Source: Minisyncoccia bacterium
GTDB lineage: Bacteria > Patescibacteriota > Minisyncoccia > Phycocordibacterales > DATDWN01
Length of the DNA: 64,000 nucleotides
Direction of reading: 5' to 3'
Assembly: GCA_049297675.1 (NCBI GenBank)
Contig: JBAQUS010000010.1
Location: 6,781-70,780 of the forward strand
Shown here: in pieces, positions 15,557-59,999 of the stretch
Position numbering within the stretch: position 1 is the stretch's first letter
Layout: each line of letters starts with the position of its first letter
Program-made: the position numbers and the translations under genes
The notes under the pieces: model-generated
Told to the model about the DNA's origin: nothing
Databases searched by the model: none
The model's input: the letters and a program-made list of their open reading frames with translations, nothing else

Positions 15557-16592
15557 TATTTATATCCACAAAAAACTTGATAAATTGTCACACATCCCAC
15601 TACTGGACTATTATTTTGGTAGGAGCAATTTAGGAGTAGAAAGATATGGTGATCAAGCCATTGGTCTTTTAAATAAGCAGTTTTTTAATTTAGTAATGTC
15701 TCCAGAAGAAGCGGATTATTTTTTAATACCTCATAATTTCTTTTATATAAAAGACCAAAAGTATCTTGATGATTTTGTTGGTTTATCCAAAAAATACAAC
15801 AAAAAAATTATTATTTTTTCCTATGGCGATTCAGATAATGATATAAATATTCCAAACAGCATCATCTTTCGAAGTTCGCAATATGCTTATAAAGCCAGGA
15901 GAAACGAAATAATAATGCCAGCTATAGCTGATGATTTATCTATAGGATTAGATTTGAGACCTAGACAAAAATCTGAGAAACCAGTTGTTGGATTTTGTGG
16001 TTGGGCAGACTATCCGAATTTTTACAGAGCTATAATCGAAAATATTAAATCAACCGTAGTTAGTTTTAAAAGTGTGTTCATTGGGAACTATTATTACCAA
16101 AAAAGAGGGCTCATGTTTCGAATAGAGGCGATAAAACATCTAAGAAAATCAAATTTATTGCAAGCGAACTTTATTATTCGTGATACATTTTCAGGTAACG
16201 AAAAAACAAGAAAAATAGACCCAAAAGTGGCAAGAGAAGAATATATTAAAAATATCTTAGAATCTGACATGTCCTTGGCTGTTAAGGGAGATGGCAATTT
16301 CTCTATAAGATTTTATGAAATTTTGAGCTTAGGAAGAATCCCTATTCTGGTTGATACAAGTTGTCCTTTGCCACTAAAAGATATTGTTAAATATAGCGAT
16401 TTTTCTGTAAGAGTTGATTCAAAAAATCTCAGCAATCTATCTGAAACAATATTAAAATTTTATACAAATTTGTCTGAAGATCAGTTCATAATGATGCAAA
16501 AAAATGCTAAGATAACCTTTGACTCGTATTTGAGAATCGATCAATTTTTCTCATACACTTTCACAGCTGAATTTCTAAAAAAATTTGACTAG
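15549..16592 (+). CDS. Putative glycosyltransferase (exostosin-like / CgeB-like GT-B C-terminal domain)
   Basis: DYFLIPHNFFY and the C-terminal IRFYEILSLGRIPILVDTS resemble the exostosin/Glyco_trans_1_2 motif. Confidence 0.4.
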   Translation: MLNIYIHKKLDKLSHIPLLDYYFGRSNLGVERYGDQAIGLLNKQFFNLVMSPEEADYFLIPHNFFYIKDQKYLDDFVGLSKKYNKKIIIFSYGDSDNDINIPNSIIFRSSQYAYKARRNEIIMPAIADDLSIGLDLRPRQKSEKPVVGFCGWADYPNFYRAIIENIKSTVVSFKSVFIGNYYYQKRGLMFRIEAIKHLRKSNLLQANFIIRDTFSGNEKTRKIDPKVAREEYIKNILESDMSLAVKGDGNFSIRFYEILSLGRIPILVDTSCPLPLKDIVKYSDFSVRVDSKNLSNLSETILKFYTNLSEDQFIMMQKNAKITFDSYLRIDQFFSYTFTAEFLKKFD

Positions 16593-18015
16593 CTCTATGG
16601 TAAAACCGCTCAAAATTGCTCCAGTTGTTTTTCTCTTATTAGTCACTACTTTTTTCTCTATTTACAAACTTTCTGAAAGTCCAAGAACATGGATGGATGA
16701 GGGTATTATCACACAGGTTTCAAAAAATGTTGCTGAATATGGAAAGCATGCTTTGCAGGTGGCACCAGAGAGATTTGTTTCGGCAGGTATAGTCTCAACA
16801 GGTTTTCCTGTCACTTTTCCTATAGCGTTATCTTTCAAATTCTTTGGCACTGGTTTGCTTCAGGCTAGAATAGTTATGGTTATTTTTATACTGCTACTTA
16901 TTTCTACAGTATTTTTTTATTTAAAGAGACTTTATGGAATGAAAGTTGGATTTTGGGGAACTTTACTTGTGGCCACTTTTTCTCCACTTTATGGTAATGG
17001 TAAAAATGTATTAGGTGAAGTTCCAGGTCTCTTTTTCTTTTTTGCAATGCTTTTGTTTATTGACAAAGCTATTCATGACAAAGAGAAAATTAGTAATTAT
17101 ATTCTTGCTGGTTTGTTTACAGGCTTAGCATTTTCAACTAAATCAATTTTCATTCTACTATTACCAGCACTATTGGTAGCTAGTTTATGGCATTTTTATA
17201 GAGGAGGTATTAATTTTGACAAGTATTACTTGTATTCATTTATAAGTTTTATAGCTGTCTTTTTTCTGTGGATATACATTCAGTTCAGTAATGATTCAAT
17301 ATCTAAGATATTGCTTATTTATGCTAATCCTTATTACATATCTGTAATTGATTCAATAAAAAATAATTTACTGTTGTTTATAGGTAGACCTGAACCAATT
17401 TATTTTCTAGGGACATTACTAATTTGGATAGTTTCATATTTCTATCGTATCAAAAAGGCAGTACCAATTAATTTTTCAGAGTCCCTTGCTCTCATGTTCT
17501 CAATACTGATCTTTCTGGCATTTTTTAGAACTCCTGGTTATTTTAGATATTTCTTTCTAGCACAGTTTATAAGTCTTGTGTATTTACTACCCTCATTGAA
17601 CTCTTTATTTTCACATACCAAACTATCAAAATTTATTTTATGGGGTATAGGAATCCTTATTGTTTTTCATATTTATATGACATCATTCCATTCTTGGGTG
17701 GCAAGTCATTACAGAGGTACTAGATCCCATGATATATCGATTTTGGCGAATGAAATATCGGATGATGGCAAAATATTGTTTTACCAAGTTCCAGAATTTA
17801 TTATTTTTCTAAAAAACAACAATTATCATCAGTTTATAGATATTACAGCTCTCATAAAAGTTGGAGAAGAAAATAAAGCATTAGTTGAGAATGGTTATTT
17901 TGATAAAATAGTCATTAATGATTCAGTCTATGATAAAAATGACTCAATGTTTAAATATTATGGTAGAGTTGGGGGTCTTGACCACTATATAATTCTGAAA
18001 AAAAATAAATTATGA
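16585..18015 (+). CDS. GT-C fold membrane glycosyltransferase (ArnT/PMT-like)
   Basis: About 11 predicted TM helices. The first extracytoplasmic loop reads ESPRTWMDEGIITQVSKNV (acidic DE motif), as in the ArnT/PMT family. Confidence 0.5.
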   Translation: MTSSMVKPLKIAPVVFLLLVTTFFSIYKLSESPRTWMDEGIITQVSKNVAEYGKHALQVAPERFVSAGIVSTGFPVTFPIALSFKFFGTGLLQARIVMVIFILLLISTVFFYLKRLYGMKVGFWGTLLVATFSPLYGNGKNVLGEVPGLFFFFAMLLFIDKAIHDKEKISNYILAGLFTGLAFSTKSIFILLLPALLVASLWHFYRGGINFDKYYLYSFISFIAVFFLWIYIQFSNDSISKILLIYANPYYISVIDSIKNNLLLFIGRPEPIYFLGTLLIWIVSYFYRIKKAVPINFSESLALMFSILIFLAFFRTPGYFRYFFLAQFISLVYLLPSLNSLFSHTKLSKFILWGIGILIVFHIYMTSFHSWVASHYRGTRSHDISILANEISDDGKILFYQVPEFIIFLKNNNYHQFIDITALIKVGEENKALVENGYFDKIVINDSVYDKNDSMFKYYGRVGGLDHYIILKKNKL

Positions 18016-22802: not shown

Positions 22803-23390
22803 ATGTCTACCGACAACCTTATTGCTAAGTTATATGAATCCACGAAAACAATTCTAACCATAAAGGACATAGCTTTAATTTGGGGGGAAACTAACACCGT
22901 CAGTCTTATCTCAAAGATCAAATACTATGCTAAACAAGGGTCGCTCAACCGCCTGACTCGTGGTGTGTTTGCAAAAAATAATGGGTATGATGTTAAAGAA
23001 TTAGCGACTAGCATCTATACCCCATCATATATAAGTTTTGAAACAGTCCTAAGAGAAGCCGGGATTATTTTTCAGCATCAGACTGCTATCTTTGTAGCCG
23101 GTCCATATCCAACTACAAAAAAGATTGGTGATAAAACAATTACATTTAGAAAATTAAAAGACAGTATTCTCTACAGTGCAGTTGGTGTGAAAAATGAAAA
23201 AAATTACAGCATTGCTACACCGGAGCGAGCATTTCTAGATACAATTTATTTATCTCCTAAATTATATTTTGACAATCTCCAATCCATTAACTGGGAGACA
23301 TGTTTTGAAATCGTGAAAATTTACGATAATAAACAACTAATAAAACGCCTAAAAAAATATCAGACTAACTACCAAAAACATGCTCAATAA
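22803..23390 (+). CDS. AbiEi-family antitoxin (type IV TA system)
   Basis: RLTRGVFAKN and PSYISFETVLREAGII match the AbiEi_4 pattern (rGvY ... SYiSlesAL). It overlaps the downstream toxin gene by 11 nt. Confidence 0.65.
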   Translation: MSTDNLIAKLYESTKTILTIKDIALIWGETNTVSLISKIKYYAKQGSLNRLTRGVFAKNNGYDVKELATSIYTPSYISFETVLREAGIIFQHQTAIFVAGPYPTTKKIGDKTITFRKLKDSILYSAVGVKNEKNYSIATPERAFLDTIYLSPKLYFDNLQSINWETCFEIVKIYDNKQLIKRLKKYQTNYQKHAQ

Positions 23391-24230: not shown

Positions 24231-25712
24231 ATGAAAAAAATAACTAATGTATTTATGTCGATCATTTTGTCTGTTTTGGTGGCAATTCCATTCAATGTTT
24301 TTGCCTTTACTTCTGAGTGTACTGGTGGAACTATTACTAATGTCGGAGCAAATACAGTTCACACTTTTACATCGAGCGGAACTTTTGAATGTTCTAGTGC
24401 AGGAACAGGAAATGTAGATTATTTGGTTGTTGCAGGCGGTGGTGGAGGTGGTGGAGCAAACAGTGCTGGTGGTGGCGGTGCTGGTGGTGTGAGGATGGGT
24501 ACTTCACTCTCATTCTCGGGCAGTTCATCTGTAACAGTTGGTTCTGGAGGTACAGGTGGGGCTGACACTGGGGTAACTGGATCGAATGGTTCTGACTCGG
24601 TGTGGAATAGTATAATCTCAATTGGTGGCAGTGGAGGTGGTGGCAATACTGCCCCCTCAAACGCTGGGACTAATGGTGGTTCAGGCGGTGGAAATGCTGG
24701 ATTTGGTACTGGACTTGCTGGATCGGGAATAGTTGGTCAAGGTAATGATGGGGGTGTTGGTGCAGATAATCCTTTTCCTTCTGGTGGGGGTGGTGGAGCA
24801 GGTTCAACTGGACAAGCTGGGACGGGTTTTCAATCAGGGTCTGGAGGAGCTGGCATAGTTAGTTCAATTTCTGGTTCTGCTATTTACTATGGAGGCGGAG
24901 GTGGTGGAGGCTCTAGCTCACAAGGATCATTATATGGACTCGGTGGTATAGGTGGTGGTGGAAATGGAGGAGAATTGGGGAATCCAACGTTAGGTGTTGC
25001 CAATACTGGAGGGGGAGGTGGTGGTTCGGGTAGTGCTAACACTGTTGGAGCGTCAGGCGGTTCGGGTATTGTAATACTGAGTTATGTAACCCCGGTCTAT
25101 CTTCCACCAATAACTGGAACTGGAATAAATAATAGATTAGCAAAATTTTCATCAGCCACCACAATAACTAACTCCTTACTTTCCGATGATGGACTAAACA
25201 TATCTCTTACCTCTGGTAACTTATTTATCTCGAACGGTTCTTTATTTTCACAATTTATTAGTTTATTAGCTGACGGTTTGGGTTTAGATACTGATACTCC
25301 CAGACTTCTCTCTATTGGCTCTACAACCGCAACTTCAATAAATATTGGTAGGGCAAATGTTACAACTACAATATTTGGTACAACAAAAATATCAAATATT
25401 GGTACTGTCTCAAATTGTGTTTCAACAATCACTCCTGCTGTATGTGGTTCTGCTCCATCTGGAAGTGTAGCAATGTCAACTGGAGGTAGTACTTTAATAG
25501 TGAATACAACAGCAGTGACATCAGATAGTCAGATATTTGTAATAGAAGATGCATCACTTGGTGCAAGACTAGGTATTACTTGTAGTGGTGCAGGGGCAAA
25601 TAGAAGTTTTAGTATTAGTGCTAGAACGGCTAATACTAGTTACACTATTAAATCTAGTGGTAATATAACTGGTGCTAACAAAGCTTGTTTGAGTTATTTT
25701 ATAGTGAACTAA
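24231..25712 (+). CDS. Secreted glycine-rich domain protein (Gly_rich-like) with conserved C-terminal Ser/Thr-rich domain; paralog A
   Basis: A signal peptide (MKKITNVFMSIILSVLVAIPFNVFA) is followed by VDYLVVAGGGGGGG and long GGxGG tracts, then GSGIVILSY. The C-terminal roughly 190 aa are about 75-80% identical to the paralog at 52750-54213. Both end in CLSYFIVN. Confidence 0.75.
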   Translation: MKKITNVFMSIILSVLVAIPFNVFAFTSECTGGTITNVGANTVHTFTSSGTFECSSAGTGNVDYLVVAGGGGGGGANSAGGGGAGGVRMGTSLSFSGSSSVTVGSGGTGGADTGVTGSNGSDSVWNSIISIGGSGGGGNTAPSNAGTNGGSGGGNAGFGTGLAGSGIVGQGNDGGVGADNPFPSGGGGGAGSTGQAGTGFQSGSGGAGIVSSISGSAIYYGGGGGGGSSSQGSLYGLGGIGGGGNGGELGNPTLGVANTGGGGGGSGSANTVGASGGSGIVILSYVTPVYLPPITGTGINNRLAKFSSATTITNSLLSDDGLNISLTSGNLFISNGSLFSQFISLLADGLGLDTDTPRLLSIGSTTATSINIGRANVTTTIFGTTKISNIGTVSNCVSTITPAVCGSAPSGSVAMSTGGSTLIVNTTAVTSDSQIFVIEDASLGARLGITCSGAGANRSFSISARTANTSYTIKSSGNITGANKACLSYFIVN

Positions 25713-25757: not shown

Positions 25758-26582
25758 TTGAAAGATATGTCTAATGATGATAAAACAGCACAAGCCTTTG
25801 CCACTTCATGGAATAATTTACCTAAAGGATCAATTTACACTGCGGACCAGTTCGTTGATTGGATGACTCCAATTACAAAAGGAGATGTAAAAAATAAAAG
25901 AGTGCTTGAGCTCGGTTGTGGTAATGCTAGTCTCATGGTTCATATATTGAATTGGGGACCATCCTATCTTGAGGGTGTTGATTTGGGTGATTCTGTTCTA
26001 TCGGCAGAAGAAAACTTATTAAGCAAGAAAAATTGGAAAATTGTTAAAGCTGATCTTACACAATATCGAAGTGAGGGTTTTGATGTGGTTTATTGCATTG
26101 GGGTAATACATCATTTAAAAAGTCCCAAGTCAGGATTTGATTCTGTGATTAAAAATACAGAAAAAGGAGGGAAATTTCATGTCTGGGTATATGCTAAAGA
26201 GGGAAACGGGATAATAATATATATTGTTGATCCAATTAGAAAAGTTGCTTCGGCACTACCGTGGTGGATTATAAAATATTTTATTGCCACTCCTCTCGTT
26301 ACACCATTCTTTTTTTATGCTAATATTGTTAGGATTTTTAAAAATGTTGGTTTTGTAAAGAGATTGCCTCTTTATGAATATAGTCAGTGGATTTCAAAAA
26401 GAGAATATAGTTTTTTTAGACATGTTGCTTTCGATCAGCTGGTTACACCACAGACTACATATATAACACGAAGCACAATTGAAAGTTGGCTTGTCTCTAA
26501 CGATAGAATTGATAAAAATACTACTTATGTAATATTAAGAAATGGTAACTCTTGGAAATTTGGTGGAAGTTTAAAGTTGTAG
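25758..26582 (+). CDS. Class I SAM-dependent methyltransferase
   Basis: Motif I is VLELGCGNASLMVHIL, followed by VDLGDSV. Confidence 0.7.
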   Translation: MKDMSNDDKTAQAFATSWNNLPKGSIYTADQFVDWMTPITKGDVKNKRVLELGCGNASLMVHILNWGPSYLEGVDLGDSVLSAEENLLSKKNWKIVKADLTQYRSEGFDVVYCIGVIHHLKSPKSGFDSVIKNTEKGGKFHVWVYAKEGNGIIIYIVDPIRKVASALPWWIIKYFIATPLVTPFFFYANIVRIFKNVGFVKRLPLYEYSQWISKREYSFFRHVAFDQLVTPQTTYITRSTIESWLVSNDRIDKNTTYVILRNGNSWKFGGSLKL

Positions 26583-26635
26583 TGTTTCGTTTGACATAAT
26601 ATATTTTTCTGTTAATACTTAGCTGTATAAATTAA

Positions 26636-27565
26636 ATGATTTCTATTGTTATCCCCGTGTATAATGAGGAAGAAAATGTTGTCTTGTTATATAACAAGAT
26701 AGTTTCAGTGATGGAAAAAATGAAAGATAATTATGAAATTATTTTTAGTGATAATGCTTCTACAGACTCTACATTAAAAAAACTTAAAACATTACCAAGA
26801 GTAAAAATTTTGTTGTTGTCTAGAAATTTCGGACAAACATCTAATCTTGATGCTGCAATTCATGAGGCTATTGGTGATATTATAGTGACAATGGACGGTG
26901 ATTTACAAAATGATCCTGAAGATATTCCAAAACTAGTTGAGAAAATTAACGAGGGTTATGATGTTGTTTCTGGATGGAGAATTGAAAGAAATGATTCATT
27001 TAGTAGAAGGTCATTATCTAGGTCTGCTAATTGGCTTGCCAGCATTGTTACTGGTTTAAAACTAAAAGACTCTGCATGTGCTATCAAGGCGTATAAAAGT
27101 GAAGTATTAAGTGATATTCATTTGTATGGAGAGATGCACGTGTTTTTGCCAGCATATTTGTATATGAGAGGAGCAAAAGTTTGTGAGATTCCAGTTAAAC
27201 ACCATTCAAGGAAGCATGGATTTTCAAAACATAATTTTATGAAAGCGGTAAAGGACATATCCGATTTACTAACCATTCGTTTCTTATCAAGTATGAATGG
27301 TAGACCACTCGTGTTTTTTGGTGGTGTTGGTGTTGTATCTATGTTTCTTGGATTTATCATTTTTGCTATTTCAGTATACTTAAAACTTGCTTCAATAAGA
27401 AATTTTGGACAAACACCCTTACCAATTCTCGCTATATTTTTTGTTTTATCATCAATTATTTTCATACTTTTAGGGTTTCTTGCTGAATTGATGTTGAGAA
27501 TATATTTTGAAACAAGTAACAAAAAACCATATTCAATAAGGGAAAGGATAATTATAGGTAAATAA
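26636..27565 (+). CDS. GtrB-like GT2 polyprenol-phosphate sugar synthase with C-terminal TM helices (paralog of 19876..20823)
   Basis: Motifs ISIVIPVYNEEENV and DGDLQNDPEDIPKLVEKINEGYDVVSGWR, plus two C-terminal TM helices. It is co-linear with the paralog at 19876..20823. Confidence 0.75.
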   Translation: MISIVIPVYNEEENVVLLYNKIVSVMEKMKDNYEIIFSDNASTDSTLKKLKTLPRVKILLLSRNFGQTSNLDAAIHEAIGDIIVTMDGDLQNDPEDIPKLVEKINEGYDVVSGWRIERNDSFSRRSLSRSANWLASIVTGLKLKDSACAIKAYKSEVLSDIHLYGEMHVFLPAYLYMRGAKVCEIPVKHHSRKHGFSKHNFMKAVKDISDLLTIRFLSSMNGRPLVFFGGVGVVSMFLGFIIFAISVYLKLASIRNFGQTPLPILAIFFVLSSIIFILLGFLAELMLRIYFETSNKKPYSIRERIIIGK

Positions 27566-28259: not shown

Positions 28260-28287
28260 GTTGAAAAAATGGCTGACATGACCTATA

Positions 28288-34750: not shown

Positions 34751-34768
34751 ATACAGTAAAATTAATTC

Positions 34769-52749: not shown

Positions 52750-54213
52750 ATGAAAAAAATAACCAGCTTATTAACATCATTATTTTTATCAATCTTACTT
52801 CTTTTCCCAATAAATAGTGCAAATGCATTTATCTCTGATTGTAGCGGGGGTAGCGTAACTCATGCTGGAGGAAAAACTATACATACTTTTAATTCAAGCG
52901 ATATATTAGATTGTACTGGAACAAGTGGTGGGGCAGTTGATTATCTAATTGTTGGAGGGGGTGGGGGAGGATCTTATCAAGATAGTGGTGCCGGCGGAGG
53001 TGCCGGCGGAGTATTGGTGGGTAATGATTACGTATTAAATGCACAATCTTATTCAGTTGTTGTGGGTGGTGGGGGTGCTATATTTTCAAAAGGAAACGAC
53101 TCTGTCTTTGATGGAATGACTGCTTACGGAGGGGGTACTCCAGTTACAGGTGGTACTGGCGACGCTATTGGTGGTTCTGGAGCTGGTGGGGGTGGCGGTG
53201 ATATTCCTGGTGCAGGAATATCTGGTCAGGGACATTCAGGTGGTTATGGACACACTGGTAGTGGCGGTGCGTGTTCTGGTGATCCCTATTCTACTGGTGG
53301 AGGTGGTGGGGCAAGTTCGATTGGGGTTGCAGGGACATCTTCTGGTTCAGGTAATGGTGGCGATGGTATAATGAGTTCAATATCTGGATCAAATTCATAT
53401 TATGGCGGAGGAGGTGGCGGAGGAGCTGAAATTTTTAGGCAATGTAGCGGGGGAAATGGGACAGGTGGTTTGGGTGGTGGCGGTAATGGTGGAACTGCTC
53501 CAAATGGTGACACAGGTTCGACTGCAGGAAGCGTAAATACAGGTGGAGGTGGTGGGAATTTTCGTTCAGGAGGTTCAGGTGTAGTAATAATAAGTTATCC
53601 TTCACTTCCAACAATAATAGGCTTGGGTGTAACAAATAGATTAGCAAAGTTCTCAACGACTAATACTATAGCTAGTTCTCTCTTCTCTGATGATGGATTA
53701 AACATCACTCTAACTTCTGGAAATTTATTTATCTCAGGAGGATCATTATTTACACAATTTATTAATATACTAGCAGATGGTCTAGGTTTAGATACAAGTA
53801 CAGCAGGACTTCTTTCCATCGGCTCTACTACTGCGACTTCAATTAATATAGGCAGATCAGGTGTAACCACAACGATACTTGGGAAGACAAAATTATCAAA
53901 TATTGGCACAATCTCAAATTGTAACTCCGTAGCTTCTCCAGCGGTATGTGGATCTGCACCGTCAGGTAGTGTTACAATGTCTAAAGGTGGCAGTACTTTA
54001 ATAGTGAATACAACATCTGTAACTCCTGATAGCCAGATATTTATCATTGAAGACTCATCACTTGGTGTAAGATTGGGAATTACCTGTAACACCGCTACAA
54101 ATCGTACTTATACAATAAGTGCAAGAGTACCTAGTACAAGCTTTACAATAAAATCAAGTAACAATGTGAATGGTGCAAACAATGCATGTCTAAGTTACTT
54201 TATTGTGAATTAA
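52750..54213 (+). CDS. Secreted glycine-rich domain protein (Gly_rich-like) with conserved C-terminal Ser/Thr-rich domain; paralog B
   Basis: A signal peptide (MKKITSLLTSLFLSILLLFPINSANA) is followed by VDYLIVGGGGGGS, GGxGG tracts and GSGVVIISY. The C-terminal domain is shared with the paralog at 24231..25712 and ends CLSYFIVN. Confidence 0.75.
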   Translation: MKKITSLLTSLFLSILLLFPINSANAFISDCSGGSVTHAGGKTIHTFNSSDILDCTGTSGGAVDYLIVGGGGGGSYQDSGAGGGAGGVLVGNDYVLNAQSYSVVVGGGGAIFSKGNDSVFDGMTAYGGGTPVTGGTGDAIGGSGAGGGGGDIPGAGISGQGHSGGYGHTGSGGACSGDPYSTGGGGGASSIGVAGTSSGSGNGGDGIMSSISGSNSYYGGGGGGGAEIFRQCSGGNGTGGLGGGGNGGTAPNGDTGSTAGSVNTGGGGGNFRSGGSGVVIISYPSLPTIIGLGVTNRLAKFSTTNTIASSLFSDDGLNITLTSGNLFISGGSLFTQFINILADGLGLDTSTAGLLSIGSTTATSINIGRSGVTTTILGKTKLSNIGTISNCNSVASPAVCGSAPSGSVTMSKGGSTLIVNTTSVTPDSQIFIIEDSSLGVRLGITCNTATNRTYTISARVPSTSFTIKSSNNVNGANNACLSYFIVN

Positions 54214-54222
54214 TAGTTATTA

Positions 54223-55458
54223 ATGAAAATTGTTATTTTATCAGATGGTTTTCCTCCACTTGCCTTGGGTGGCGCGGAAGTCATTGCTAGAAATTTAGCA
54301 AAGGCTTTAGCGGAAAGAGGTCATGAGGTTTCGGTTATAACTTCTACAAAAGATATAAATGATGCAGGAAAGTTTACGGACGGAAAAATAAATATATACA
54401 AAATATATAGTGATTATTCTGATAGGTGGAGAGCTTACAGGAGTTTGTACAATTCAGGGGTTGTTCATAAGGTAGAGTCGATTTTGTCAAAAATAAAACC
54501 TGATATTGTTCATATTCATAATATTCATAAGCATCTGTCATATGCTTGCATTAATGTGGCAAAAAAATACTCGAGAGGGATTGTATTGACTGCACATGAT
54601 CTTATGCTTGTACATTACGGGAAATTAGGTGCACATGTAGGCAAAAACAATGAGGTTGAAGTGGACAAAATAAGTTTTTTGAGTCAAATAATGCAATACA
54701 AATTTAGATATAATCCATTTAGGAATTTTGTAATACGGTACTATCTTCGCAAAGTAGATAAGATTTTTGCTGTTAGTAGTGCATTGAAGAATATCTTAGA
54801 AAGAGAGGGTATCTCCGGAATAGAAGTTTTACATAACGGTATTAAGGTTTCGGATTGGATTATTGATAAAAGTAAATTAATTGATTTTAAAAATAAATAC
54901 GAACTCTCTGACAAAAAAGTTCTTTTTTTTGGTGGTCGTTTAACTGGGATAAAAGGGGGTATCGTTGCACTTCAAGTATTGGAAAAAGTGTTATCAAAAA
55001 TCGATAATGCAGTTTTGATTGTTGTAGGTCACAAGGATGATTGGGGGAAAGAGATGTTGGAGAAAACAAAAGATATGAGAATAGATAGAAAAGTCATCTT
55101 TACAGGGTGGATTCCCCATGAAGATATCCGTTATGCTTACGCTTCTTCGGATGTGGTGCTAGTTTTATCTAGGTATCTAGATCCATTTCCTACAATAAAT
55201 CTTGAGGCTATGGCTACAAGCAAAGCTGTAGTTGGTACAATTTTAGGTGGTACTCCAGAGGCAGTATTAGATAACAAGACAGGGTATATAGTTGATCCAA
55301 ATAATATTGAGTTGGTAAGTGAAAAAGTGTTAGATTTGCTGAGTGACATTGATAAATTAAAATCATTTGGACTTTCAGGTTTCAAGAGAGTTTCAAATAT
55401 TAATAACGAAGAGATTTGGGTAGATAAAACTATTTTATGCTATACTTCAGTACTTTAG
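54223..55458 (+). CDS. Glycosyltransferase family 1 (GT4-type)
   Basis: The N-terminus is MKIVILSDGFPPLALGGAEVIARNLAKALAERGHEV. The C-terminal region carries the GT1 E..A...PVV-type motif. Confidence 0.75.
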   Translation: MKIVILSDGFPPLALGGAEVIARNLAKALAERGHEVSVITSTKDINDAGKFTDGKINIYKIYSDYSDRWRAYRSLYNSGVVHKVESILSKIKPDIVHIHNIHKHLSYACINVAKKYSRGIVLTAHDLMLVHYGKLGAHVGKNNEVEVDKISFLSQIMQYKFRYNPFRNFVIRYYLRKVDKIFAVSSALKNILEREGISGIEVLHNGIKVSDWIIDKSKLIDFKNKYELSDKKVLFFGGRLTGIKGGIVALQVLEKVLSKIDNAVLIVVGHKDDWGKEMLEKTKDMRIDRKVIFTGWIPHEDIRYAYASSDVVLVLSRYLDPFPTINLEAMATSKAVVGTILGGTPEAVLDNKTGYIVDPNNIELVSEKVLDLLSDIDKLKSFGLSGFKRVSNINNEEIWVDKTILCYTSVL

Positions 55459-55468
55459 AGTAAATCTC

Positions 55469-56185
55469 ATGGCAAATGAAAGTACTATAGATTACTACGA
55501 TAATCAAAGCGGTCAATACTCCCAGAAACGTTACGAAGGGAAGACAGAGACTTATTTTCAATTTCTCTTTAAGAGAAGAAGGCAGATTTTTTTGGGTTTT
55601 ATAGCTAGTCTTGGTGATTTTAAGGATTTTAGACTATTTGAAATTGGTTGTGCTGATGGTGTTTTAATAAAAAAAATATTACAGAAAATGCCAAACAGTT
55701 TTAGTAAAATAGTTGGCATAGACATTTCTCCAAAAATGTTGGAGAAGGCGAGAGCTACTACGGCAGACTCGAGGGTCAGTTACTTTTTGAGAGGTGAAGA
55801 AGATTTTTCAATAAAATATAACCTTGTTCTTGAGGTGGGTGTACACGTCTCAGATCTTTTAACTGAGGTAAAATTTGTAAGTAACAAACTTTCTGTTGGT
55901 GGCTATTTTATATATTCTACTGCAGGCAAGAATTCCCTCCATGCAAGAATAAAACTAAGAGATAAGGATTATGCCAAAGAATATATAACTTATTTTAAAT
56001 GTGAAGAAATCTTAAACAGATATTTTGAGATAATCTCATCCCAAGGCTATGGTCTTTTCATTCCCAAACTTTGGGCGGTTCCGGCTTTGGCAAGAGTGGT
56101 CCAGCCGATTGCCGAAGCTTTATTTCGAAAAATACTTCCAAATCTATTTCATGAAAAAATTTATCTTCTAAGAAAGAAAAACTAG
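55469..56185 (+). CDS. Class I SAM-dependent methyltransferase
   Basis: Motif I is LFEIGCADGVLIKKIL, followed by IVGIDISPKMLEKA. Confidence 0.7.
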   Translation: MANESTIDYYDNQSGQYSQKRYEGKTETYFQFLFKRRRQIFLGFIASLGDFKDFRLFEIGCADGVLIKKILQKMPNSFSKIVGIDISPKMLEKARATTADSRVSYFLRGEEDFSIKYNLVLEVGVHVSDLLTEVKFVSNKLSVGGYFIYSTAGKNSLHARIKLRDKDYAKEYITYFKCEEILNRYFEIISSQGYGLFIPKLWAVPALARVVQPIAEALFRKILPNLFHEKIYLLRKKN

Positions 56186-56190: not shown

Positions 56191-56309
56191 TCCCGTTAGA
56201 AATCACTCGGTTATATTTAGAGAAAAAATGTATATTTAAAAAATCAGTGACTTTATATATATTATTCACCTAAACTACGGAAACAATAGGTTTCCTATCT
56301 CTAACGGGA
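56191..56309. repeat. MITE-like palindromic element, family 1 copy c (diverged interior)
   Basis: Has the terminal IRs tcccgttagaaatc and gatctctaacggga, matching the termini of the copies at 4877 and 13555. The interior is unrelated. The right terminus encodes the last codons and the stop (…LSR*) of the minus-strand Wzx gene. Confidence 0.55.
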
Positions 56310-57569
56310 TAGATCCTCCTTGTGTGTCGCGAAGAAGTAGTAGTTTACTAAAAGCATGATGAGCCAAGAGATGCCGTTTTCTATGACTGCACCTTTTAGT
56401 CCGAAATTGTAAATAAGCACAAAAGTTAGGGCAATAGTTATCAGGTTGCTAATTGTAGTTAGTTTGTACATTGTCTTTGCGTCTTTCTTTATCTGGAAAT
56501 AGATGCCAAAGAGTGATATGCCAGGAATAGCTATGAGTCCGAGCATGTAGATCTGTGAGTAAATAACTGCCTCGGTGTATTTGGGAAAGAAAAGCTCAAA
56601 GACAAATGGAGCTAAGACAATGTACACGGCAACAATGACAATTGTTATTAATGTAAGTTGCCATGTTTTCTTCATGATGCTACTTCGGAGGTTCGCTTCA
56701 TCCAACACAGCATATTTTGGAAGAGCAATGTTAAAGAGATTTTTATAGCTACCTTTTATTTGTTCAGGTATTGCTTGTGAAAAGGCATATATTGCCAAGT
56801 TAGCCGCACCAAGATAATGAAAGACTAAAATTTTGTCTAGCTGGTTTGCTAAACTGTTAAAGAAATTCATAAAGCTGACATGTTTGCCGTAAGAAAGGAA
56901 AGAATCATCTGTTTCCGTGTTGGGACGATATTTTGAGATTACATGAAAATAAGACCATGTGGCTGATCCCGCACTCAAAACAAAATATACTGCAACTAGA
57001 GATAAGACACTCTCAGAGAAAAGGGCTATAGCGATTATCCCCATGTTTAGAAGAAGTTGAGAAAAAATCCAGTAAACTGTGCTCAGCTTAAAATTTTTCT
57101 TTCCTGAAAAATATGTGCCGTATAATCCATATGAGTTTATAATCGGTAAGCAAACTGAAGCTATGGCAAAAGAAAATCCAAGAACTTTGTTTCCATTTAG
57201 AAGATAGTAGATAGACATACTTAAACCTACTAAAACCATAATAAAGCTCCATTTAAATGATAGAGAAACGGTTTTTCTAAGCATTCCTTCTTTTCCCTTA
57301 GCAATTGCTTGAGTTAATACGTTCGGCATTCCCGTTAAGGAAAGTGTTCCGAGGATGCCAATTGCTGAGAGTATAAATTTATACTGACCGTAAAAATCTT
57401 TTGAAACAAAGTTTGCAAAAAAGACAGACAGTCCGAATGCCATTACCACGGCTGAAATTTGCCCTACAGTCATCCAGAAACCACTTTTCGCAACATAAGC
57501 CATGTCGGTTTCGAAATAGTTTCCTAGCCAGTTTATGGCGTAGAGCCTCTTATCTTTGAGCTTTTGCAT
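56301..57569 (-). CDS. Wzx-like oligosaccharide/polysaccharide flippase (MOP superfamily, Polysacc_synt)
   Basis: 422 aa with about 12 TM helices. The N-terminal KSGFWMTVGQISAVVMAFGLSVFFANFVSKDFYGQYKFILSAIGILG is typical of Wzx. Confidence 0.65.
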   Translation of the reverse strand: MQKLKDKRLYAINWLGNYFETDMAYVAKSGFWMTVGQISAVVMAFGLSVFFANFVSKDFYGQYKFILSAIGILGTLSLTGMPNVLTQAIAKGKEGMLRKTVSLSFKWSFIMVLVGLSMSIYYLLNGNKVLGFSFAIASVCLPIINSYGLYGTYFSGKKNFKLSTVYWIFSQLLLNMGIIAIALFSESVLSLVAVYFVLSAGSATWSYFHVISKYRPNTETDDSFLSYGKHVSFMNFFNSLANQLDKILVFHYLGAANLAIYAFSQAIPEQIKGSYKNLFNIALPKYAVLDEANLRSSIMKKTWQLTLITIVIVAVYIVLAPFVFELFFPKYTEAVIYSQIYMLGLIAIPGISLFGIYFQIKKDAKTMYKLTTISNLITIALTFVLIYNFGLKGAVIENGISWLIMLLVNYYFFATHKEDLSR

Positions 57570-57610
57570 GGCGTCATATTACTTTATTTTTCATCTATTT
57601 GCCAACGCGA

Positions 57611-57780
57611 ATTATAAAACTCGACGAAAATACATGTTTTCTGGCGTATCTCGGAGAGCGTGAAGCTCAAGAGTTAAGGAAAATTTTCAGCCCGCCCGTA
57701 CCCGAACGGTACGTTCGGGCGGGCAGAAAATTATTCCGGCGCCAGAAAATATGTGTTGAGTAAGAGTTTTGTAGTTCGCG
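57611..57780. repeat. MITE-like palindromic element, family 2 copy B, carrying a 34-bp G+C-rich perfect-palindrome insertion
   Basis: The copy is co-linear with 43064-43199. An extra gcccgcccgtacccgaacggtacgttcgggcgggc lies at about 57690-57724. Its nested perfect stems are gcccgcccg/cgggcgggc and cccgaacg/cgttcggg with loop gta. The G+C content there is strikingly above the local level. Confidence 0.65.
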
Positions 57781-57806
57781 ATTTACTAGCTTGTGGGAAT
57801 ACCATT

Positions 57807-57815
57807 TGCTATACT
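57807..57815 (+). promoter_or_regulatory. Candidate extended -10 promoter element (TGCTATACT) giving a leaderless transcript for the ligase-like gene
   Basis: tgctatact at 57807-57815 has a TGn-TATACT architecture. The ATG at 57822 lies 7 nt downstream, and there is no Shine-Dalgarno. Confidence 0.3.
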
Positions 57816-57821
57816 CGACCC

Positions 57822-59999
57822 ATGAAAAATACAAAAAAAATACTTGAATATTTAATTATAAGCGGTTTGTTTTTATTGCCATTTATTCCTTTTATTGTTC
57901 CATCAAATTTCTTTTTCCCTTTTATTACAGGCAAAGGTTTTGCTTTCAGAATTTTGGTAGAAATTTTGTTCGGGCTTTTTGTCATACTTTGCTTTGTAGA
58001 TAAAGAATATAGACCAAATTTTTCGTGGATTACTAAATCCGTTTTACTTTTCACTTTCGTTACTTTTGTCGCAGATATTTTTGGTGAGAATCCTTACAAA
58101 AGCATGTGGAGTAACTTCGAAAGAATGGAAGGATTTGTCCTCATAGCTCACCTCTGTCTTTTTTATCTGGTTATATCTTCATTTATTAAACAGAAGAAAA
58201 AATGGCATCAATATATTAACCTAACCATAGGAGCAAGTGTCCTCATGTCCGTCTATTCACTTTTTCAGCTAGCAGGTAAGTTAAACATAAATCAAGGAGG
58301 AGTTCGTGTTGATGCTACGTTTGGAAACGCCACATACATGGCTATTTACGTTGTTTTTCATATATTCTTGTCTCTTTATATGCTTACAGAGAAAGAGAGC
58401 AAGAAATGGCAAAAATGGACGTATGGTGGCATTATCCTTCTCGAAACCACCATACTCTATTTCACAGCAACTAGAGGGGCAATCTTGGGGTTAATAGGAG
58501 GTGTTCTCCTTACAGGACTTATTCTTCTTTTCAAAGATAGAGGTAACGCACATTTGAGAAAAATTTCTTATTCTATCTTGGGATTGGTAGTGGCTATTGT
58601 GCTCATTTTTATTTCTGTAAAAGATACAGGTTATGTAAAAACAAGTCCAGTTCTCTCGAGATTTTCCTCACTTAGTTTTTCTGAAATAAAAACTCAGGGC
58701 AGATATTTTGTTTGGCCAATGGCAGTAAAGGGGGTTATCGAGCGACCGATTTTGGGTTGGGGACAGGAGAATTTTAACTTTGTCTTTAATAAAAATTACG
58801 ATCCAAGAATGTGGAATCAAGAACAGTGGTTTGATAGGACTCACAATGTTTTTCTCGATTGGCTTATCGCTGGAGGTCTCTTAGGTTTTCTGTCTTATGC
58901 CAGTATGTATTTGGCGCTCTTCTACTATATCTGGAGAAAGAAAACCGATCTGACAGTTCTTGAGAGGAGTGTTCTGACAGGGATGATATCGGCATATATT
59001 TTCCACAATATATTCGTATTCGACAATCTCATAAGTTACATAATGTTCTTTACTGTCTTGGGTTATATTCATGCCATTTCTACCCATGACGAACCTCGGT
59101 ATCATAAATTCCATTCTCTAAATTTCTCACACGATACAGTAAACTATGTTGTCTTTCCCACTGTTCTGGTGGCTACGATCGGGATGATTTACTTTGTAAA
59201 TATTCCTGCTATTTCTGCAAATATTAATCTAATCAAAGCTTTAACCCCGAGTGGTAATTATGAAAAGAATCTTGAGCTATTTAAAAAAGCATACAGTTAT
59301 AACTCCTTAGCTGATTCAGAAATAACAGAGCAGATTGTGACATCGGCGATTCAAGCAATAGGTACCCAGGGTGTCGATAATAAAATTAAAAATGATTTTT
59401 ACAATCTCGCTAAAACCCAAATTGAGAAGAAAATAAATAAAGTCCCAAATGATGCAAGGTATCTCGTTTTCGCTGGGAGTTTTTTCAACAGAGTAGGGCA
59501 GTTTGATGAGGCAATAAAGTATCTGGATATGGCAGTTAAAGAATCACCTAGAAAGCAATCAATTTTATTTGAGCTCGGTTCTTCATACATAGGCAAAGGA
59601 GATTTACCAAAAATGTTTGAAATGTTTAAGAAAGCATACGAACTTGAACCAAGCTCAAACGAGGCTTTAGCTTTGTATGCAGTTGGGGCAATATATACTA
59701 AAAATATTGCCGTACTTAAAGAACTACAATCAAAAATAAGTACTGAAGACCTCATTAAAGACGATAGATTTTTGAGGGCATATAGTGAGATAGGGGATTA
59801 TCAAACAGTCCTGACAATACTAAATGCCAGACTAGAAAAGGATCCAAAGAATCCTCAAAATAATTTACTTCTTGCTTCCACTTATGCTTCGCTTGGTCAA
59901 AAACAAAAAGCAATAGAAATTATTCAAAAAATAATAAATGAAAATCCTAGCTTCAAAGCACAAGGGGAAGGGTATATAAAAGAGATCGAATCAAGATAG
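57822..59999 (+). CDS. O-antigen ligase-like (Wzy_C domain) polytopic membrane protein fused to C-terminal TPR repeats
   Basis: TRGAILGLIGGVLLTGL and FVWPMAVKGVIERPILGWGQENFNFVF match the Wzy_C/O-antigen ligase signature. The C-terminal roughly 250 aa form TPR-like repeats (YLDMAVKESPRKQSILFELGSSYIGKGDLPKMFEMFKKAYELEPSS...). The track starts at 57753 within the repeat element; the ATG at 57822 is preferred. Confidence 0.65.
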   Translation: MKNTKKILEYLIISGLFLLPFIPFIVPSNFFFPFITGKGFAFRILVEILFGLFVILCFVDKEYRPNFSWITKSVLLFTFVTFVADIFGENPYKSMWSNFERMEGFVLIAHLCLFYLVISSFIKQKKKWHQYINLTIGASVLMSVYSLFQLAGKLNINQGGVRVDATFGNATYMAIYVVFHIFLSLYMLTEKESKKWQKWTYGGIILLETTILYFTATRGAILGLIGGVLLTGLILLFKDRGNAHLRKISYSILGLVVAIVLIFISVKDTGYVKTSPVLSRFSSLSFSEIKTQGRYFVWPMAVKGVIERPILGWGQENFNFVFNKNYDPRMWNQEQWFDRTHNVFLDWLIAGGLLGFLSYASMYLALFYYIWRKKTDLTVLERSVLTGMISAYIFHNIFVFDNLISYIMFFTVLGYIHAISTHDEPRYHKFHSLNFSHDTVNYVVFPTVLVATIGMIYFVNIPAISANINLIKALTPSGNYEKNLELFKKAYSYNSLADSEITEQIVTSAIQAIGTQGVDNKIKNDFYNLAKTQIEKKINKVPNDARYLVFAGSFFNRVGQFDEAIKYLDMAVKESPRKQSILFELGSSYIGKGDLPKMFEMFKKAYELEPSSNEALALYAVGAIYTKNIAVLKELQSKISTEDLIKDDRFLRAYSEIGDYQTVLTILNARLEKDPKNPQNNLLLASTYASLGQKQKAIEIIQKIINENPSFKAQGEGYIKEIESR

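What the first reader, a model, noticed from the sequence alone, without database searches (positions are those of the whole stretch)
24231..25712. Paralogous secreted glycine-rich proteins with a shared C-terminal domain ending in CLSYFIVN
Two genes 28 kb apart (24231-25712 and 52750-54213) encode proteins with signal peptides and a very Gly-rich central region (VDYL[VI]V[AG]GGGGGG, long GGxGG tracts, GSG[IV]V[IV]). Their roughly 190-aa Ser/Thr-rich C-terminal domains are highly similar, with conserved Cys pairs and an identical C-terminal octapeptide. They flank the glycosyltransferase core of the island, and each is followed by GT or methyltransferase genes. This is the arrangement expected for S-layer or surface glycoprotein substrates. 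The identical C-terminal tail could be an anchoring or sorting signal.
Basis: partly seen in the sequence, partly recalled or inferred. Interest (0 to 1): 0.55.

Follow-up and report, generated by a model that had tools for sequence, protein, structure and literature searches.

The report
Secreted phage-fibre-like proteins in a glycan island
Two old paralogous genes in a Patescibacteria (CPR) surface-sugar gene island encode exported, probably trimeric fibre proteins built from two modules otherwise typical of phage receptor-binding proteins; the 'CLSYFIVN tail' is the last strand of a folded tailspike-type end domain, not a short sorting peptide.

Summary
ORFs 24231-25712 (493 aa) and 52750-54213 (487 aa) have signal peptides, 36-37% Gly central regions, conserved Cys pairs and the same last eight residues. 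Their C-terminal 214 aa are 73% identical.

The Gly-rich half is Pfam Gly_rich_2 (PF21722), not PF12810. Its model best matches the TNF-like/polyglycine heads of phage tail fibres (Pam3, Bxb1), then ALK/LTK. The last ~98 aa fold confidently into a beta-sandwich most like tailspike/depolymerase C-terminal domains (K1-lyase_C type).

This end domain is always terminal. It defines about 2,600 protein clusters, and all 150 best end in ...C[LF]SYx[IV][VI]N. It occurs in phage contigs, Acidobacteriota and a monophyletic CPR clade.

In CPR it sits behind signal peptides and variable heads (Gly_rich_2, ConA-like lectin). In 14 of 15 loci the gene lies inside glycan-biosynthesis islands.

A and B are old paralogues (dS saturated). 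The C-terminal half is under strong purifying selection.

Best reading: exported trimeric lectin/adhesin-like fibres whose function is tied to the cell's glycan coat. Glycoprotein-substrate and anchoring roles remain open. S-layer and classical sorting-signal membership are not supported.

The parts
24231..25712 (+). Gene A, 493 aa; NCBI name 'glycine-rich domain-containing protein [Minisyncoccia bacterium]'
   Evidence: ORF; identical protein P0019 on contig JBAQWQ010000017.1 of GCA_049298995.1
24231..24305 (+). A: predicted Sec signal peptide (aa 1-25, ...NVFA|FTSEC)
   Evidence: Read from the sequence. Modelled as an N-terminal helix, aa 2-18. Orthologues L008, L011 and L013 have the same layout
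24369..25085 (+). A: Gly_rich_2 head (aa 47-285), a TNF-like beta-sandwich plus polyglycine-type lattice; extra Cys pair C30/C54 just upstream and inside
   Evidence: PF21722 at 62.2 bits, cut-off 24.3. pLDDT mostly above 90 with almost no alpha/beta assigned in aa 103-279. Foldseek: Pam3 fibre 7ypx E 5.6e-6, Bxb1 tail tip 9d93 E 4e-5. phrog_2295 E 1.7e-50
25086..25409 (+). A: Ser/Thr-rich fibre-like stalk (aa 286-393) with the NRLAKF...SDDG.N...GLGLDT...IGSTTATSINIGR motif
   Evidence: Conserved in relatives and present as tandem units in P0001. Low pLDDT as a monomer. Stalk plus end domain aligns over more than 200 columns with Caudovirales proteins. omega 0.125 against B
25410..25709 (+). 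A: C-terminal beta-sandwich end domain (aa 394-493), four invariant Cys, ends CLSYFIVN
   Evidence: Alignments A1 and A3. pLDDT above 90. Foldseek: Pam1 tailspike 7eea, K64-1 depolymerase 9k4a. BFVD K1-lyase_C-named proteins. omega 0.094
52750..54213 (+). Gene B, 487 aa, paralogue of A; same NCBI name
   Evidence: ORF; P0279; sister to A in the C-domain tree
52750..52827 (+). B: predicted Sec signal peptide (aa 1-26, ...NSANA|FISDC)
   Evidence: Read from the sequence
52930..53598 (+). B: Gly_rich_2 head (aa 61-283)
   Evidence: PF21722 at 46.2 bits; phrog_2295 E 2.9e-33
53599..53913 (+). B: fibre-like stalk (aa 284-388)
   Evidence: Alignment with A
53914..54210 (+). B: C-terminal beta-sandwich end domain (aa 389-487), ends CLSYFIVN
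   Evidence: Sub-threshold PF24146 match, 22.5 bits against cut-off 27; alignment A3
25758..27565 (+). Context: SAM methyltransferase and GT2 directly downstream of A (45-bp gap, no terminator)
54223..56185 (+). Context: GT4 glycosyltransferase (9-bp gap) and methyltransferase directly downstream of B
56301..59999 (.). Context: Wzx-type flippase (- strand) and Wzy_C + TPR membrane protein (+ strand); the latter is the only candidate O-oligosaccharyltransferase/polymerase-type protein near B
   Evidence: 7 TM-like segments
16585..18015 (+). Context: PMT_2 (GT-C type) membrane glycosyltransferase
   Evidence: Precomputed Pfam; 7 TM-like segments

Best explanation
A and B are two anciently duplicated members of a Patescibacteria-specific family of Sec-exported, disulfide-bonded fibre proteins assembled from phage receptor-binding-protein modules. 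Each mature protein is about 43.5 kDa and acidic. It has three parts: (i) an N-terminal TNF-like/polyglycine 'head' (Pfam Gly_rich_2); (ii) a Ser/Thr-rich beta-fibre stalk; (iii) a ~98-aa tailspike-type beta-sandwich whose last strand is the CLSYFIVN 'tail'.

Shown: the domain identities, their predicted folds, the family distribution, the selection pattern and the conserved location in glycan islands.

Inferred mechanism: after export, three C-terminal sandwiches associate into the trimer-locking cap described for tailspikes. The stalk then zips up from that nucleus, and three Gly-rich heads are presented at the other end as a ligand-binding tip, probably for a glycan. CPR family members combine one conserved C-terminal module with interchangeable binding heads (Gly_rich_2 or ConA-like lectin) and are almost always encoded among surface-glycan genes. 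I therefore infer that they are lectin/adhesin-like surface fibres whose function is coupled to the cell's own glycan coat. They could be held on that coat through the conserved end, or decorated by it.
For: Head:
- PF21722 at 62 and 46 bits.
- AF2 pLDDT above 90 with long stretches lacking alpha/beta assignment.
- Best solved matches are Pam3 fibre gp24 and the Bxb1 tail-tip protein, then LTK/ALK TG domains. In Pam3 this domain is the proposed receptor-binding tip (PMC9608196).

End domain:
- pLDDT above 90.
- Best matches are tailspike/depolymerase C-terminal domains and BFVD proteins named K1-lyase_C.
- Close CPR relatives reach the PF24146 cut-off.
- In K1 lyase three such sandwiches form a dome that locks the trimer (PMC8822698). 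The CTD is described as essential for trimerisation (PMC11652154).

Exported state:
- Signal peptides.
- The head Cys pair is present only in the secreted CPR forms; relatives without a signal peptide have Ala and Val/Pro there.

Modularity:
- CPR carriers pair the same end domain with Gly_rich_2, Laminin_G_3 or other heads.

Selection:
- dS is saturated everywhere. omega is 0.33 in the head, 0.125 in the stalk and 0.094 in the end domain.

Context:
- GT1, GT2, methyltransferase, epimerase, DegT and AsnB neighbours dominate 104 flanking ORFs of 11 CPR loci.
- 10 of those 11 loci have at least two homologues of window glycan genes.
- P0003 and P0006 are in glycan clusters too.
- CPR end domains are monophyletic.
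Against: - No oligomer was modelled, so trimerisation rests on analogy.
- Links to solved structures are fold-level only, at 21-25% identity. Sequence searches of the PDB and of deposited phage genomes found nothing.
- A itself has no PF24146 hit and B is below the cut-off.
- No ligand is known for any Gly_rich_2 protein of bacteria.
- The layout is inverted relative to phage fibres. There the Gly-rich head is C-terminal, so the phage analogy may not transfer.
- One CPR locus (L012) shows no BLAST-detectable glycan genes nearby.
- Nothing shows whether the protein stays on the cell or is released.
Confidence: 0.5

Rival explanations
1. One reading: A and B are the protein substrates (S-layer or other surface glycoproteins) of the glycosylation machinery encoded around them. 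This does not exclude the best explanation.
For: - Conserved co-location with glycan genes in CPR.
- Short gaps and no terminators to downstream methyltransferase and GT genes.
- The island holds a PMT_2 GT-C enzyme, a Wzy_C+TPR protein and four unannotated polytopic membrane proteins that could act outside the membrane.
- It also holds a GDP-heptose-type gene set. From my own knowledge, such a pathway feeds S-layer glycans in some Gram-positives.
- The proteins are acidic, exported and rich in Ser/Thr.
Against: - No S-layer or wall-binding family is detected.
- Six to eight Cys per protein.
- Ser/Thr richness is equally present in phage-contig relatives and lies in conserved beta-strands, not in a disordered linker.
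- N-sequons are not enriched.
- Wzy_C and PMT_2 are not among the recurrent neighbours in other CPR loci.
- No specific partner gene is conserved next to the carriers.
Confidence: 0.22
2. The ~98-aa end domain is a dedicated C-terminal sorting or anchoring module, functionally like a T9SS C-terminal domain. A specific machinery would recognise it and attach the passenger to the envelope or glycan.
For: - It is always at the extreme C-terminus, in 150 of 150 best representatives, with an invariant terminal Asn and Cys at -8.
- About three quarters of the carriers with a complete N-terminus have signal-peptide-like N-termini and very diverse passenger domains.
- It is the most strongly constrained part of A and B.
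Against: - It is homologous or structurally similar to tailspike end domains that act as trimer caps.
- There is no hydrophobic helix or basic tail.
- No NCBIfam or Pfam sorting-domain hit.
- No sortase- or PorU-like gene in 64 kb.
- Only one or two carriers were seen per genome in the scans, unlike general sorting systems.
- It is shared by CPR, Acidobacteriota and phage contigs, which have no known common sorting machinery.
Confidence: 0.12
3. A and B are virion tail fibres or remnants of a prophage or tailocin that happen to lie in the island.
For: - Both folded modules are typical of phage receptor-binding proteins.
- 74 IMG/VR contigs carry the end domain, with head protein and endolysin genes nearby.
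- An AbiEi/AbiEii pair sits just upstream of A.
Against: - Signal peptides and secretion-specific disulfides.
- No capsid, terminase, tail or lysis gene among the window's ORFs.
- Purifying selection on two old paralogues.
- A monophyletic CPR clade with the same glycan-island context.
- No virion-attachment N-terminus.
Confidence: 0.05
4. They are enzymes that trim or remodel the island's polysaccharide, like depolymerases encoded in exopolysaccharide operons.
For: - The end domain is named after a capsule lyase.
- One phage-contig relative carries a GDSL esterase domain.
- Location in a glycan operon.
Against: A and B have no beta-helix or other catalytic domain. The whole length is accounted for by signal peptide, binding-type head, stalk and end domain.
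Confidence: 0.04

Closest known systems
Cyanophage Pam3 tail fibre gp24 (PDB 7YPX/7YFW) and the mycobacteriophage Bxb1 tail-tip protein (9D93 chains Q)
   Same: TNF-like beta-sandwich that extends into a glycine-rich lattice. These are the best fold matches of the A head: E 5.6e-6 and 4e-5, 23-25% identity over about 260 columns. The domain is the proposed receptor-binding tip (PMC9608196).
   Different: In the phage proteins, and in about 90 of the 119 closest Gly_rich_2 relatives, the head is at the C-terminal distal end behind a virion-docking N-terminus, with no signal peptide. In A and B it follows a signal peptide at the N-terminus, has an added Cys pair, and is followed by a stalk and a second globular domain. 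No fibre chaperone gene is nearby.
C-terminal beta-sandwich of phage tailspikes and depolymerases (Pfam K1-lyase_C PF24146; K1 lyase, Pam1 tailspike 7EEA, K64-1 S2-4 9K4A)
   Same: A ~90-100-aa beta-sandwich with a short helix at the very C-terminus. Fold match: rmsd 2.6-2.9 A, 21-24% identity. BFVD proteins with this Pfam name match at about 1e-5. Relatives reach the Pfam cut-off.
   Different: There is no beta-helix enzyme in front. It has two conserved disulfides and an invariant ...AC[LF]SYx[IV][VI]N-COOH end. The carriers are exported. A has no hit and B is below the Pfam cut-off.
ALK/LTK extracellular TNF-like + glycine-rich (TG) domain (Pfam Gly_rich PF12810)
   Same: Extracellular ligand-binding domain combining a TNF-like sandwich with polyglycine-type helices. 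Weak fold matches, E 0.02-0.1.
   Different: No PF12810 hit at E <= 1. The structural match is much weaker than to phage fibres.
Folded C-terminal sorting domains such as the T9SS C-terminal domain (comparison from my own knowledge)
   Same: A ~100-aa beta-sandwich that always ends Sec-exported proteins with diverse passenger domains.
   Different: No HMM hit to such families. No T9SS is expected in CPR. Homologues occur on phage contigs. Few carriers per genome.
Surface-protein genes linked to wall-glycan or S-layer-glycan loci in Gram-positive bacteria (from my own knowledge; not tested here)
   Same: Exported surface protein genes embedded in, or next to, the genes that make the glycan they carry or bind.
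   Different: No SLH, CWB2 or other known wall-binding or S-layer domain. The domain content is phage-fibre-like.

Membership tests
Pfam Gly_rich_2 (PF21722) | Profile score at or above the gathering cut-off (24.3 bits) | tested here: met
   A 62.2 bits (aa 47-285); B 46.2 bits (aa 61-283)
Pfam Gly_rich_2 (PF21722) | TNF-like sandwich plus glycine lattice fold, as in solved phage fibre heads | tested here: met
   Predicted model only: pLDDT above 90; Foldseek Pam3 7ypx E 5.6e-6, Bxb1 9d93 E 4e-5
Pfam Gly_rich (PF12810, ALK/LTK type) | Profile match | tested here: not met
   No hit at E <= 1; only weak fold similarity to LTK/ALK, E 0.02-0.1
Pfam K1-lyase_C (PF24146) | Profile score at or above the gathering cut-off (27 bits) | tested here: inconclusive
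   A has no hit and B scores 22.5 bits. Close relatives score 27.2 (L008), 28.2 (L009), 27.2 (L015) and 27.7 (L028). Precomputed PF24146 marks appear on many homologues
Pfam K1-lyase_C (PF24146) | C-terminal beta-sandwich fold of tailspikes | tested here: met
   7eea: rmsd 2.9 A over 86 columns, 24% identity. 9k4a: rmsd 2.6 A over 98 columns. BFVD proteins with this name at E 1.7e-5 to 1e-4
Pfam K1-lyase_C (PF24146) | Three copies form a trimer-locking dome | not testable with these tools
   Only monomer prediction was available. The property is taken from PMC8822698
Phage virion tail fibre / tailspike | Encoded in a phage genome among structural genes | tested here: not met
   The window's ORFs are glycan-pathway, toxin-antitoxin, pilin, VirD4-like and membrane proteins; none is a phage structural gene. 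CPR relatives also lie in glycan islands
Phage virion tail fibre / tailspike | Cytoplasmic assembly with an N-terminal virion-attachment domain | tested here: not met
   The N-terminus is a signal peptide directly followed by the head
S-layer protein | Known S-layer or wall-anchoring domain (SLH, CWB2 and similar) | tested here: not met
   Pfam and NCBIfam give no such hit
S-layer protein | Forms an abundant 2-D lattice on the cell | not testable with these tools
   Needs proteomics or cryo-ET
Short C-terminal sorting signals (LPXTG/sortase, PEP-CTERM/exosortase, GlyGly-CTERM) | Motif followed by a hydrophobic helix and a basic tail, plus a cognate processing enzyme | tested here: not met
   The protein ends ...KACLSYFIVN inside a predicted beta-strand, aa 484-492. 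No sortase-type gene in the window. No NCBIfam hit
T9SS C-terminal domain | Match to T9SS CTD profiles and presence of a T9SS | tested here: not met
   No NCBIfam or Pfam hit. T9SS components were not seen in the window. That they are absent from CPR rests on my own knowledge
Glycoprotein substrate of the island | Carries a glycan | not testable with these tools
   Only indirect evidence: conserved synteny in favour; no sequon enrichment against

The most novel reading that the evidence does not exclude
Patescibacteria have domesticated both 'business ends' of phage receptor-binding proteins into one Sec-exported, two-ended fibre. The conserved tailspike-type end domain would be a new kind of non-covalent anchor to the cell's own surface glycan, which would explain why the genes travel with glycan islands. 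The interchangeable N-terminal heads (polyglycine TG head, ConA-like lectin) would recognise the surface of the host bacterium on which these episymbionts live. That would make these proteins a previously unrecognised class of CPR host-recognition adhesins, alongside type IV pili.
Probability: 0.2. Interest if true: 0.7.

Novelty: new variant of a known kind. Interest (0 to 1): 0.45.

Why it matters
How ultrasmall Patescibacteria recognise and hold on to their hosts is largely unknown beyond type IV pili. Their cell-surface proteins are almost entirely unannotated. This family offers concrete candidates: exported proteins with a binding-type head also used by phages and by the ALK/LTK receptors, fixed to a conserved end domain, and genetically linked to the glycan coat. 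It also shows phage receptor-binding modules being used as secreted cellular proteins. The polyglycine-type head is a rare fold of interest to protein designers. Relatives occur in MAGs labelled Saccharibacteria, a group that can now be genetically manipulated (PMC10633639), so the idea can be tested. If the proteins turn out to be only structural glycoproteins, the finding is an ordinary annotation refinement.

Tried and rejected
The domain is PF21722.
- Sequence searches of the PDB with the C-terminal profile (A1, A3) and with the head alone: nothing significant. The only matches were chance hits to antibody light chains at E 0.5-1.
- tblastn of both halves against 50,697 deposited phage genomes: no match. 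The low-complexity filter probably masks much of the Gly-rich query.
- Literature search for PF21722, Gly_rich_2, PF24146 or K1-lyase_C: no papers. Searches on Patescibacteria surface proteins found nothing on this family.
- Promoter and terminator scans around both genes: not above shuffled expectation.
- N-x-S/T sequon enrichment: none.
- A specific conserved partner gene, such as a fibre chaperone or dedicated transferase, next to CPR carriers: none. Only generic GT2/methyltransferase, GT1 and AsnB clusters recur.
- Recent gene conversion as the reason for the similar C-terminal halves: rejected, because dS is saturated along the whole gene.
- A further copy of the end domain in the window: none. 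The weak hit at 62.2-63.5 kb is compositional similarity to another Ser/Thr-rich fibre-like ORF.
- tRNA and Rfam scans of the window: nothing.
Full report
**1. The observation**

- BLASTP aligns their C-terminal 214 residues at 73% identity (E 6e-98). tblastn aligns the full lengths at 57% and finds no third copy of the C-terminal region in the window.
- Residues 30-285 are 36-37% glycine. The remainder is about 15% Ser and 14-15% Thr.
- Both begin with a typical lysine-rich, then hydrophobic, then small-x-small N-terminus. This was read from the sequence; no predictor was run.
- Both share six Cys positions and both end in CLSYFIVN.
- The window has 34% G+C and no tRNA or Rfam hit.
- Protein A is identical to an NCBI protein called 'glycine-rich domain-containing protein [Minisyncoccia bacterium]' from MAG GCA_049298995.1. 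B carries the same name. The organism is therefore a member of the Patescibacteria (CPR).
- One correction: the genes do not flank the glycosyltransferase core. They sit inside one very large glycan island. The island contains:
  - GT1, GT2, GT4 and GT47 glycosyltransferases from about 3.6 to 55 kb, and several methyltransferases;
  - AsnB, sugar epimerases/dehydratases and a UDP-sugar dehydrogenase;
  - a GHMP-kinase / NTP-transferase / SIS / HAD set;
  - Wzx, PMT_2 and Wzy_C-TPR.

**2. The Gly-rich half**

- Pfam assigns it to Gly_rich_2 (PF21722; 62 and 46 bits against a cut-off of 24.3), not to PF12810. PHROGs gives a strong match to phrog_2295, of unknown function (E 1.7e-50).
- I predicted an AlphaFold2 model of full-length A with a 139-sequence alignment. 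Residues 31-290 are confident (mostly pLDDT above 90). A small beta-sandwich is followed by about 180 residues that are confidently placed yet almost free of alpha or beta assignment. That is what a polyglycine/polyproline-II-type lattice looks like.
- Foldseek against the PDB ranks the hits in this order:
  - cyanophage Pam3 tail fibre, E 5.6e-6, 23% identity over 266 columns;
  - a mycobacteriophage Bxb1 tail-tip protein, E 4e-5;
  - the TNF-like/glycine-rich domains of LTK and ALK, E 0.02-0.1.
- In Pam3 this module forms the distal tip of the fibre and is proposed to bind the receptor. Its resemblance to S16 gp38 and to ALK has been noted (PMC9608196).
- The family is huge: more than 4,798 hits.
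- Among the 119 closest relatives, about 90 have no signal peptide and carry the Gly-rich domain at their C-terminal end (…GGSGIVIIRY-COOH) behind phage-fibre-like N-termini. Twenty have a signal peptide or membrane helix. Four are fused to a type IV pilin N-terminus.
- A and B are therefore an unusual, 'inverted' use of the module, with the head coming straight after the signal peptide.
- The head of A and B carries a Cys pair (C30/C54). That pair is absent from the other 137 aligned sequences, where the aligned positions are mostly Ala and Val/Pro. It is conserved, with the same 24-residue spacing, in the CPR orthologues L008, L011 and L013. This fits adaptation to an extracytoplasmic location.

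**3. The C-terminal half is two things**

- Alignment with 18 homologues shows a repetitive fibre-like segment (NRLAKF…SDDG.N…GLGLDT…IGSTTATSI.IGR, tandemly repeated in P0001). It is followed by a sharply conserved ~98-residue module with four invariant Cys, an invariant Tyr and an invariant terminal Asn.
- Both AF2 runs give pLDDT above 90 for the last ~100 residues, as eight strands and one short helix. The stalk gets low confidence as a monomer.
- Foldseek against the PDB puts the C-terminal domains of the Pam1 cyanophage tailspike (24% identity, rmsd 2.9 A) and of Klebsiella phage K64-1 depolymerase S2-4 (21%, rmsd 2.6 A) on top. Sf6, phi297, LKA1 and AP22 tailspikes follow.
- Against predicted viral structures there are 22 hits at E <= 1e-3. 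They are mainly uncultured Caudovirales proteins. Several are named 'K1 capsule-specific polysaccharide lyase C-terminal domain-containing protein', and some have collagen-like stalks. Several alignments span the stalk as well.
- Pfam agrees at the margin. B scores 22.5 bits on PF24146 (cut-off 27) and A has no hit, but close CPR relatives reach 27.2-28.2 bits.
- In the K1 lyase crystal structure this beta-sandwich (4+3 strands plus a short 3-10 helix) associates three-fold into a dome that locks the trimer (PMC8822698). A review calls the depolymerase CTD essential for trimerisation and possibly helpful in receptor binding (PMC11652154).
- CLSYFIVN is thus the last strand (aa 484-492) of a folded domain, tied to the rest through Cys486. 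It is not a free tail.

**4. How widespread the end domain is**

- An exhaustive profile search of 1.84 billion representative proteins finds 2,595 clusters at E <= 1e-3 and 198 at E <= 1e-30.
- In all 150 best hits the domain ends at the last residue. All 150 end in Asn and have Cys at -8, with the pattern A-C-[LF]-S-Y-x-[IV]-[VI]-N.
- 106 of the 140 with a complete N-terminus look exported by a simple hydrophobicity rule. Only 5 of 150 have a Gly-rich head.
- Pattern scans found 27 genome loci: 12 CPR at 57-69% identity, 14 Acidobacteriota at 33-55% and one Desulfobulbia. They also found 74 IMG/VR viral contigs at 37-54% identity.
- In a neighbour-joining tree (no bootstrap, midpoint root) the 14 CPR domains form one clade with no outsiders, and A and B are sisters.

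**5. Context separates the CPR clade from the rest**

- Around 12 viral loci, PHROGs recognises major head proteins, endolysins, HNH and homing endonucleases, an Ig-domain structural protein and a pectate lyase. The most distant homologue, P0018, lies among dozens of small unannotated ORFs with SSB and SLT.
- Around 11 further CPR loci, the 104 flanking ORFs contain 14 GT1 and 11 GT2 glycosyltransferases, about 14 SAM methyltransferases plus 6 of the FkbM type, epimerases/dehydratases, DegT and AsnB. No phage family is among the top 25.
- Per locus, 10 of those 11 have at least two BLASTP homologues of this window's glycan genes within 6 kb.
- P0003 (Parcubacteria GW2011_GWA1_47_8) and P0006 are also in glycan clusters, next to methyltransferases.
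- Counting A and B, that makes 14 of 15 CPR loci.
- CPR carriers are 283-575 aa. Those with a complete, confidently called N-terminus start with a signal peptide. Their heads are Gly_rich_2 (L008, L011, L012, L013, A, B), Laminin_G_3/ConA-like lectin (L009, L017, P0004) or unannotated.
- No single partner gene is conserved beside them.

**6. Evolution of the pair**

- Nei-Gojobori estimates show synonymous sites saturated along the whole gene (dS 1.3-1.8).
- omega is 0.33 in the head, 0.125 in the stalk and 0.094 in the end domain.
- The duplication is therefore old. The greater similarity of the C-terminal halves reflects stronger constraint, not gene conversion. The heads have diverged faster, as expected if they carry the specificity.

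**7. What it most likely does**

Shown:
- an exported, disulfide-bearing protein made of a phage-fibre binding head, a fibre stalk and a tailspike-type end domain;
- a CPR-specific clade;
- conserved residence in glycan islands;
- modular heads on a constant end.

Inferred:
- the end domain trimerises and nucleates folding of the stalk, as in tailspikes and other phage fibres;
- the heads bind a ligand, probably a carbohydrate, given that the alternative heads are ConA-like lectins and that this module is proposed to recognise receptors in phages;
- the link to the glycan island means the fibres are either retained on, or decorated by, the cell's own glycan.

I put about 0.5 on this overall picture of a lectin/adhesin-like trimeric surface fibre coupled to the glycan coat. 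The specific sub-claim that the end domain anchors the fibre to self glycan gets about 0.2.

**8. Rivals**

  - For: the synteny, the operon-like spacing (gaps of 45 and 9 bp, no terminator), and the presence of PMT_2, Wzy_C-TPR and four unannotated polytopic membrane proteins.
  - Against: Ser/Thr richness is a family trait shared with phage-contig relatives. Sequons are not enriched. Nothing identifies an S-layer protein.
- *Dedicated sorting or anchoring domain.* The strictly terminal position on many exported proteins suggests it. It lacks any supporting machinery or signal features, and it is homologous to a structural trimer cap.
- *Prophage or tailocin remnant.* Signal peptides, secretion-specific cysteines, purifying selection and the absence of phage genes in 64 kb argue against it.
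- *Enzymatic role.* There is no domain left to carry it.

**9. Comparison with known families, and novelty**

- A and B are members of Pfam Gly_rich_2. By fold and by the scores of their close relatives, they belong to a divergent branch of the K1-lyase_C end-domain family.
- They are not virion fibres, not ALK-type Gly_rich (PF12810) members by profile, and not members of any known S-layer or sorting-signal family.
- The architecture (signal peptide, N-terminal TG head, stalk, tailspike end domain) and its fixed association with CPR glycan islands were not found in the literature I could search.
- I rate it a new variant of a known kind, of moderate interest. It is a concrete, testable candidate for a CPR surface adhesin family, but no function is demonstrated.

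Noticed in passing
window 61195/61303 to beyond 64000 (+ strand; runs off the window): A very large ORF of more than 900 aa. It has an N-terminal helix-turn-helix-like segment and one membrane helix (around aa 152 counted from 61303). Then comes a long Ser/Thr-rich fibre-like region with repeated 'GG.SVTGGCVSVNGTCLG / GINLTTGCFAVNGVCLG' Cys-loop motifs. The same motif occurs in the middle of end-domain homologue P0008. There are no Pfam, NCBIfam or PHROGs hits. It may be another surface fibre of the same cell.
   Followed up: partly
viral loci L042, L045, L049, L059, L081 and others; Acidobacteriota loci L022, L025: Many carriers of the end domain on IMG/VR viral contigs (53-62% G+C) and in Acidobacteriota genomes also begin with signal-peptide-like N-termini. 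That is unexpected for virion fibres assembled in the cytoplasm. One carrier has a GDSL esterase domain. They may be phage-encoded secreted proteins or host genes inside predicted prophages. Unexplained.
   Followed up: partly
window 22803-24093 (+): An AbiEi-like antitoxin and AbiEii nucleotidyltransferase toxin pair sits inside the glycan island, immediately upstream of gene A. The same arrangement appears in four independent assemblies.
   Followed up: no
window 27570-29307 and 33562-35503 (+); 40229-41981 (-): NTP-transferase, GHMP kinase, SIS-domain isomerase and HAD phosphatase, plus a transaldolase and a split transketolase. From my own knowledge this gene set suggests a nucleotide-activated heptose pathway fed from sedoheptulose-7-phosphate.
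   Followed up: no
window 35523-39219, 46159-48459, 49447-50994 (+): Four large polytopic membrane proteins (650, 612, 766 and 515 aa; 6-13 hydrophobic segments) have no Pfam family. The first two ORFs overlap by about 95 nt. They could be unrecognised GT-C-type glycosyltransferases or polymerases.
   Followed up: partly
window 997-1464 and 1838-3661 (+); 8787-9449 (+): A type IV pilin-like gene (N_methyl motif) and a VirD4/TraG-like coupling-protein gene lie at the 5' edge of the island. An IS200-type Y1 transposase lies within it.
   Followed up: no
L010 (Parcubacteria GW2011_GWA1_47_8, contig LCOP01000003.1) about 3905-5510: The deposited 301-aa protein P0003 seems to be the C-terminal part of a split gene. 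The open frame upstream of its start already reads ...GGAGGTHSGGGQSGMDGGSGIVMISV, which is the end of a Gly_rich_2 head. An overlapping upstream ORF without a Pfam hit may be the rest of that head.
   Followed up: no
end-domain profile A3 against PDB sequences: The only, non-significant, sequence matches are antibody light-chain V domains. Cys3 ('RLGITC') and Cys4 ('ACLSY') of the end domain align with the two canonical Ig-fold cysteines (E 0.5-1). This is probably chance, but it is compatible with a core disulfide bridging the two sheets.
   Followed up: no
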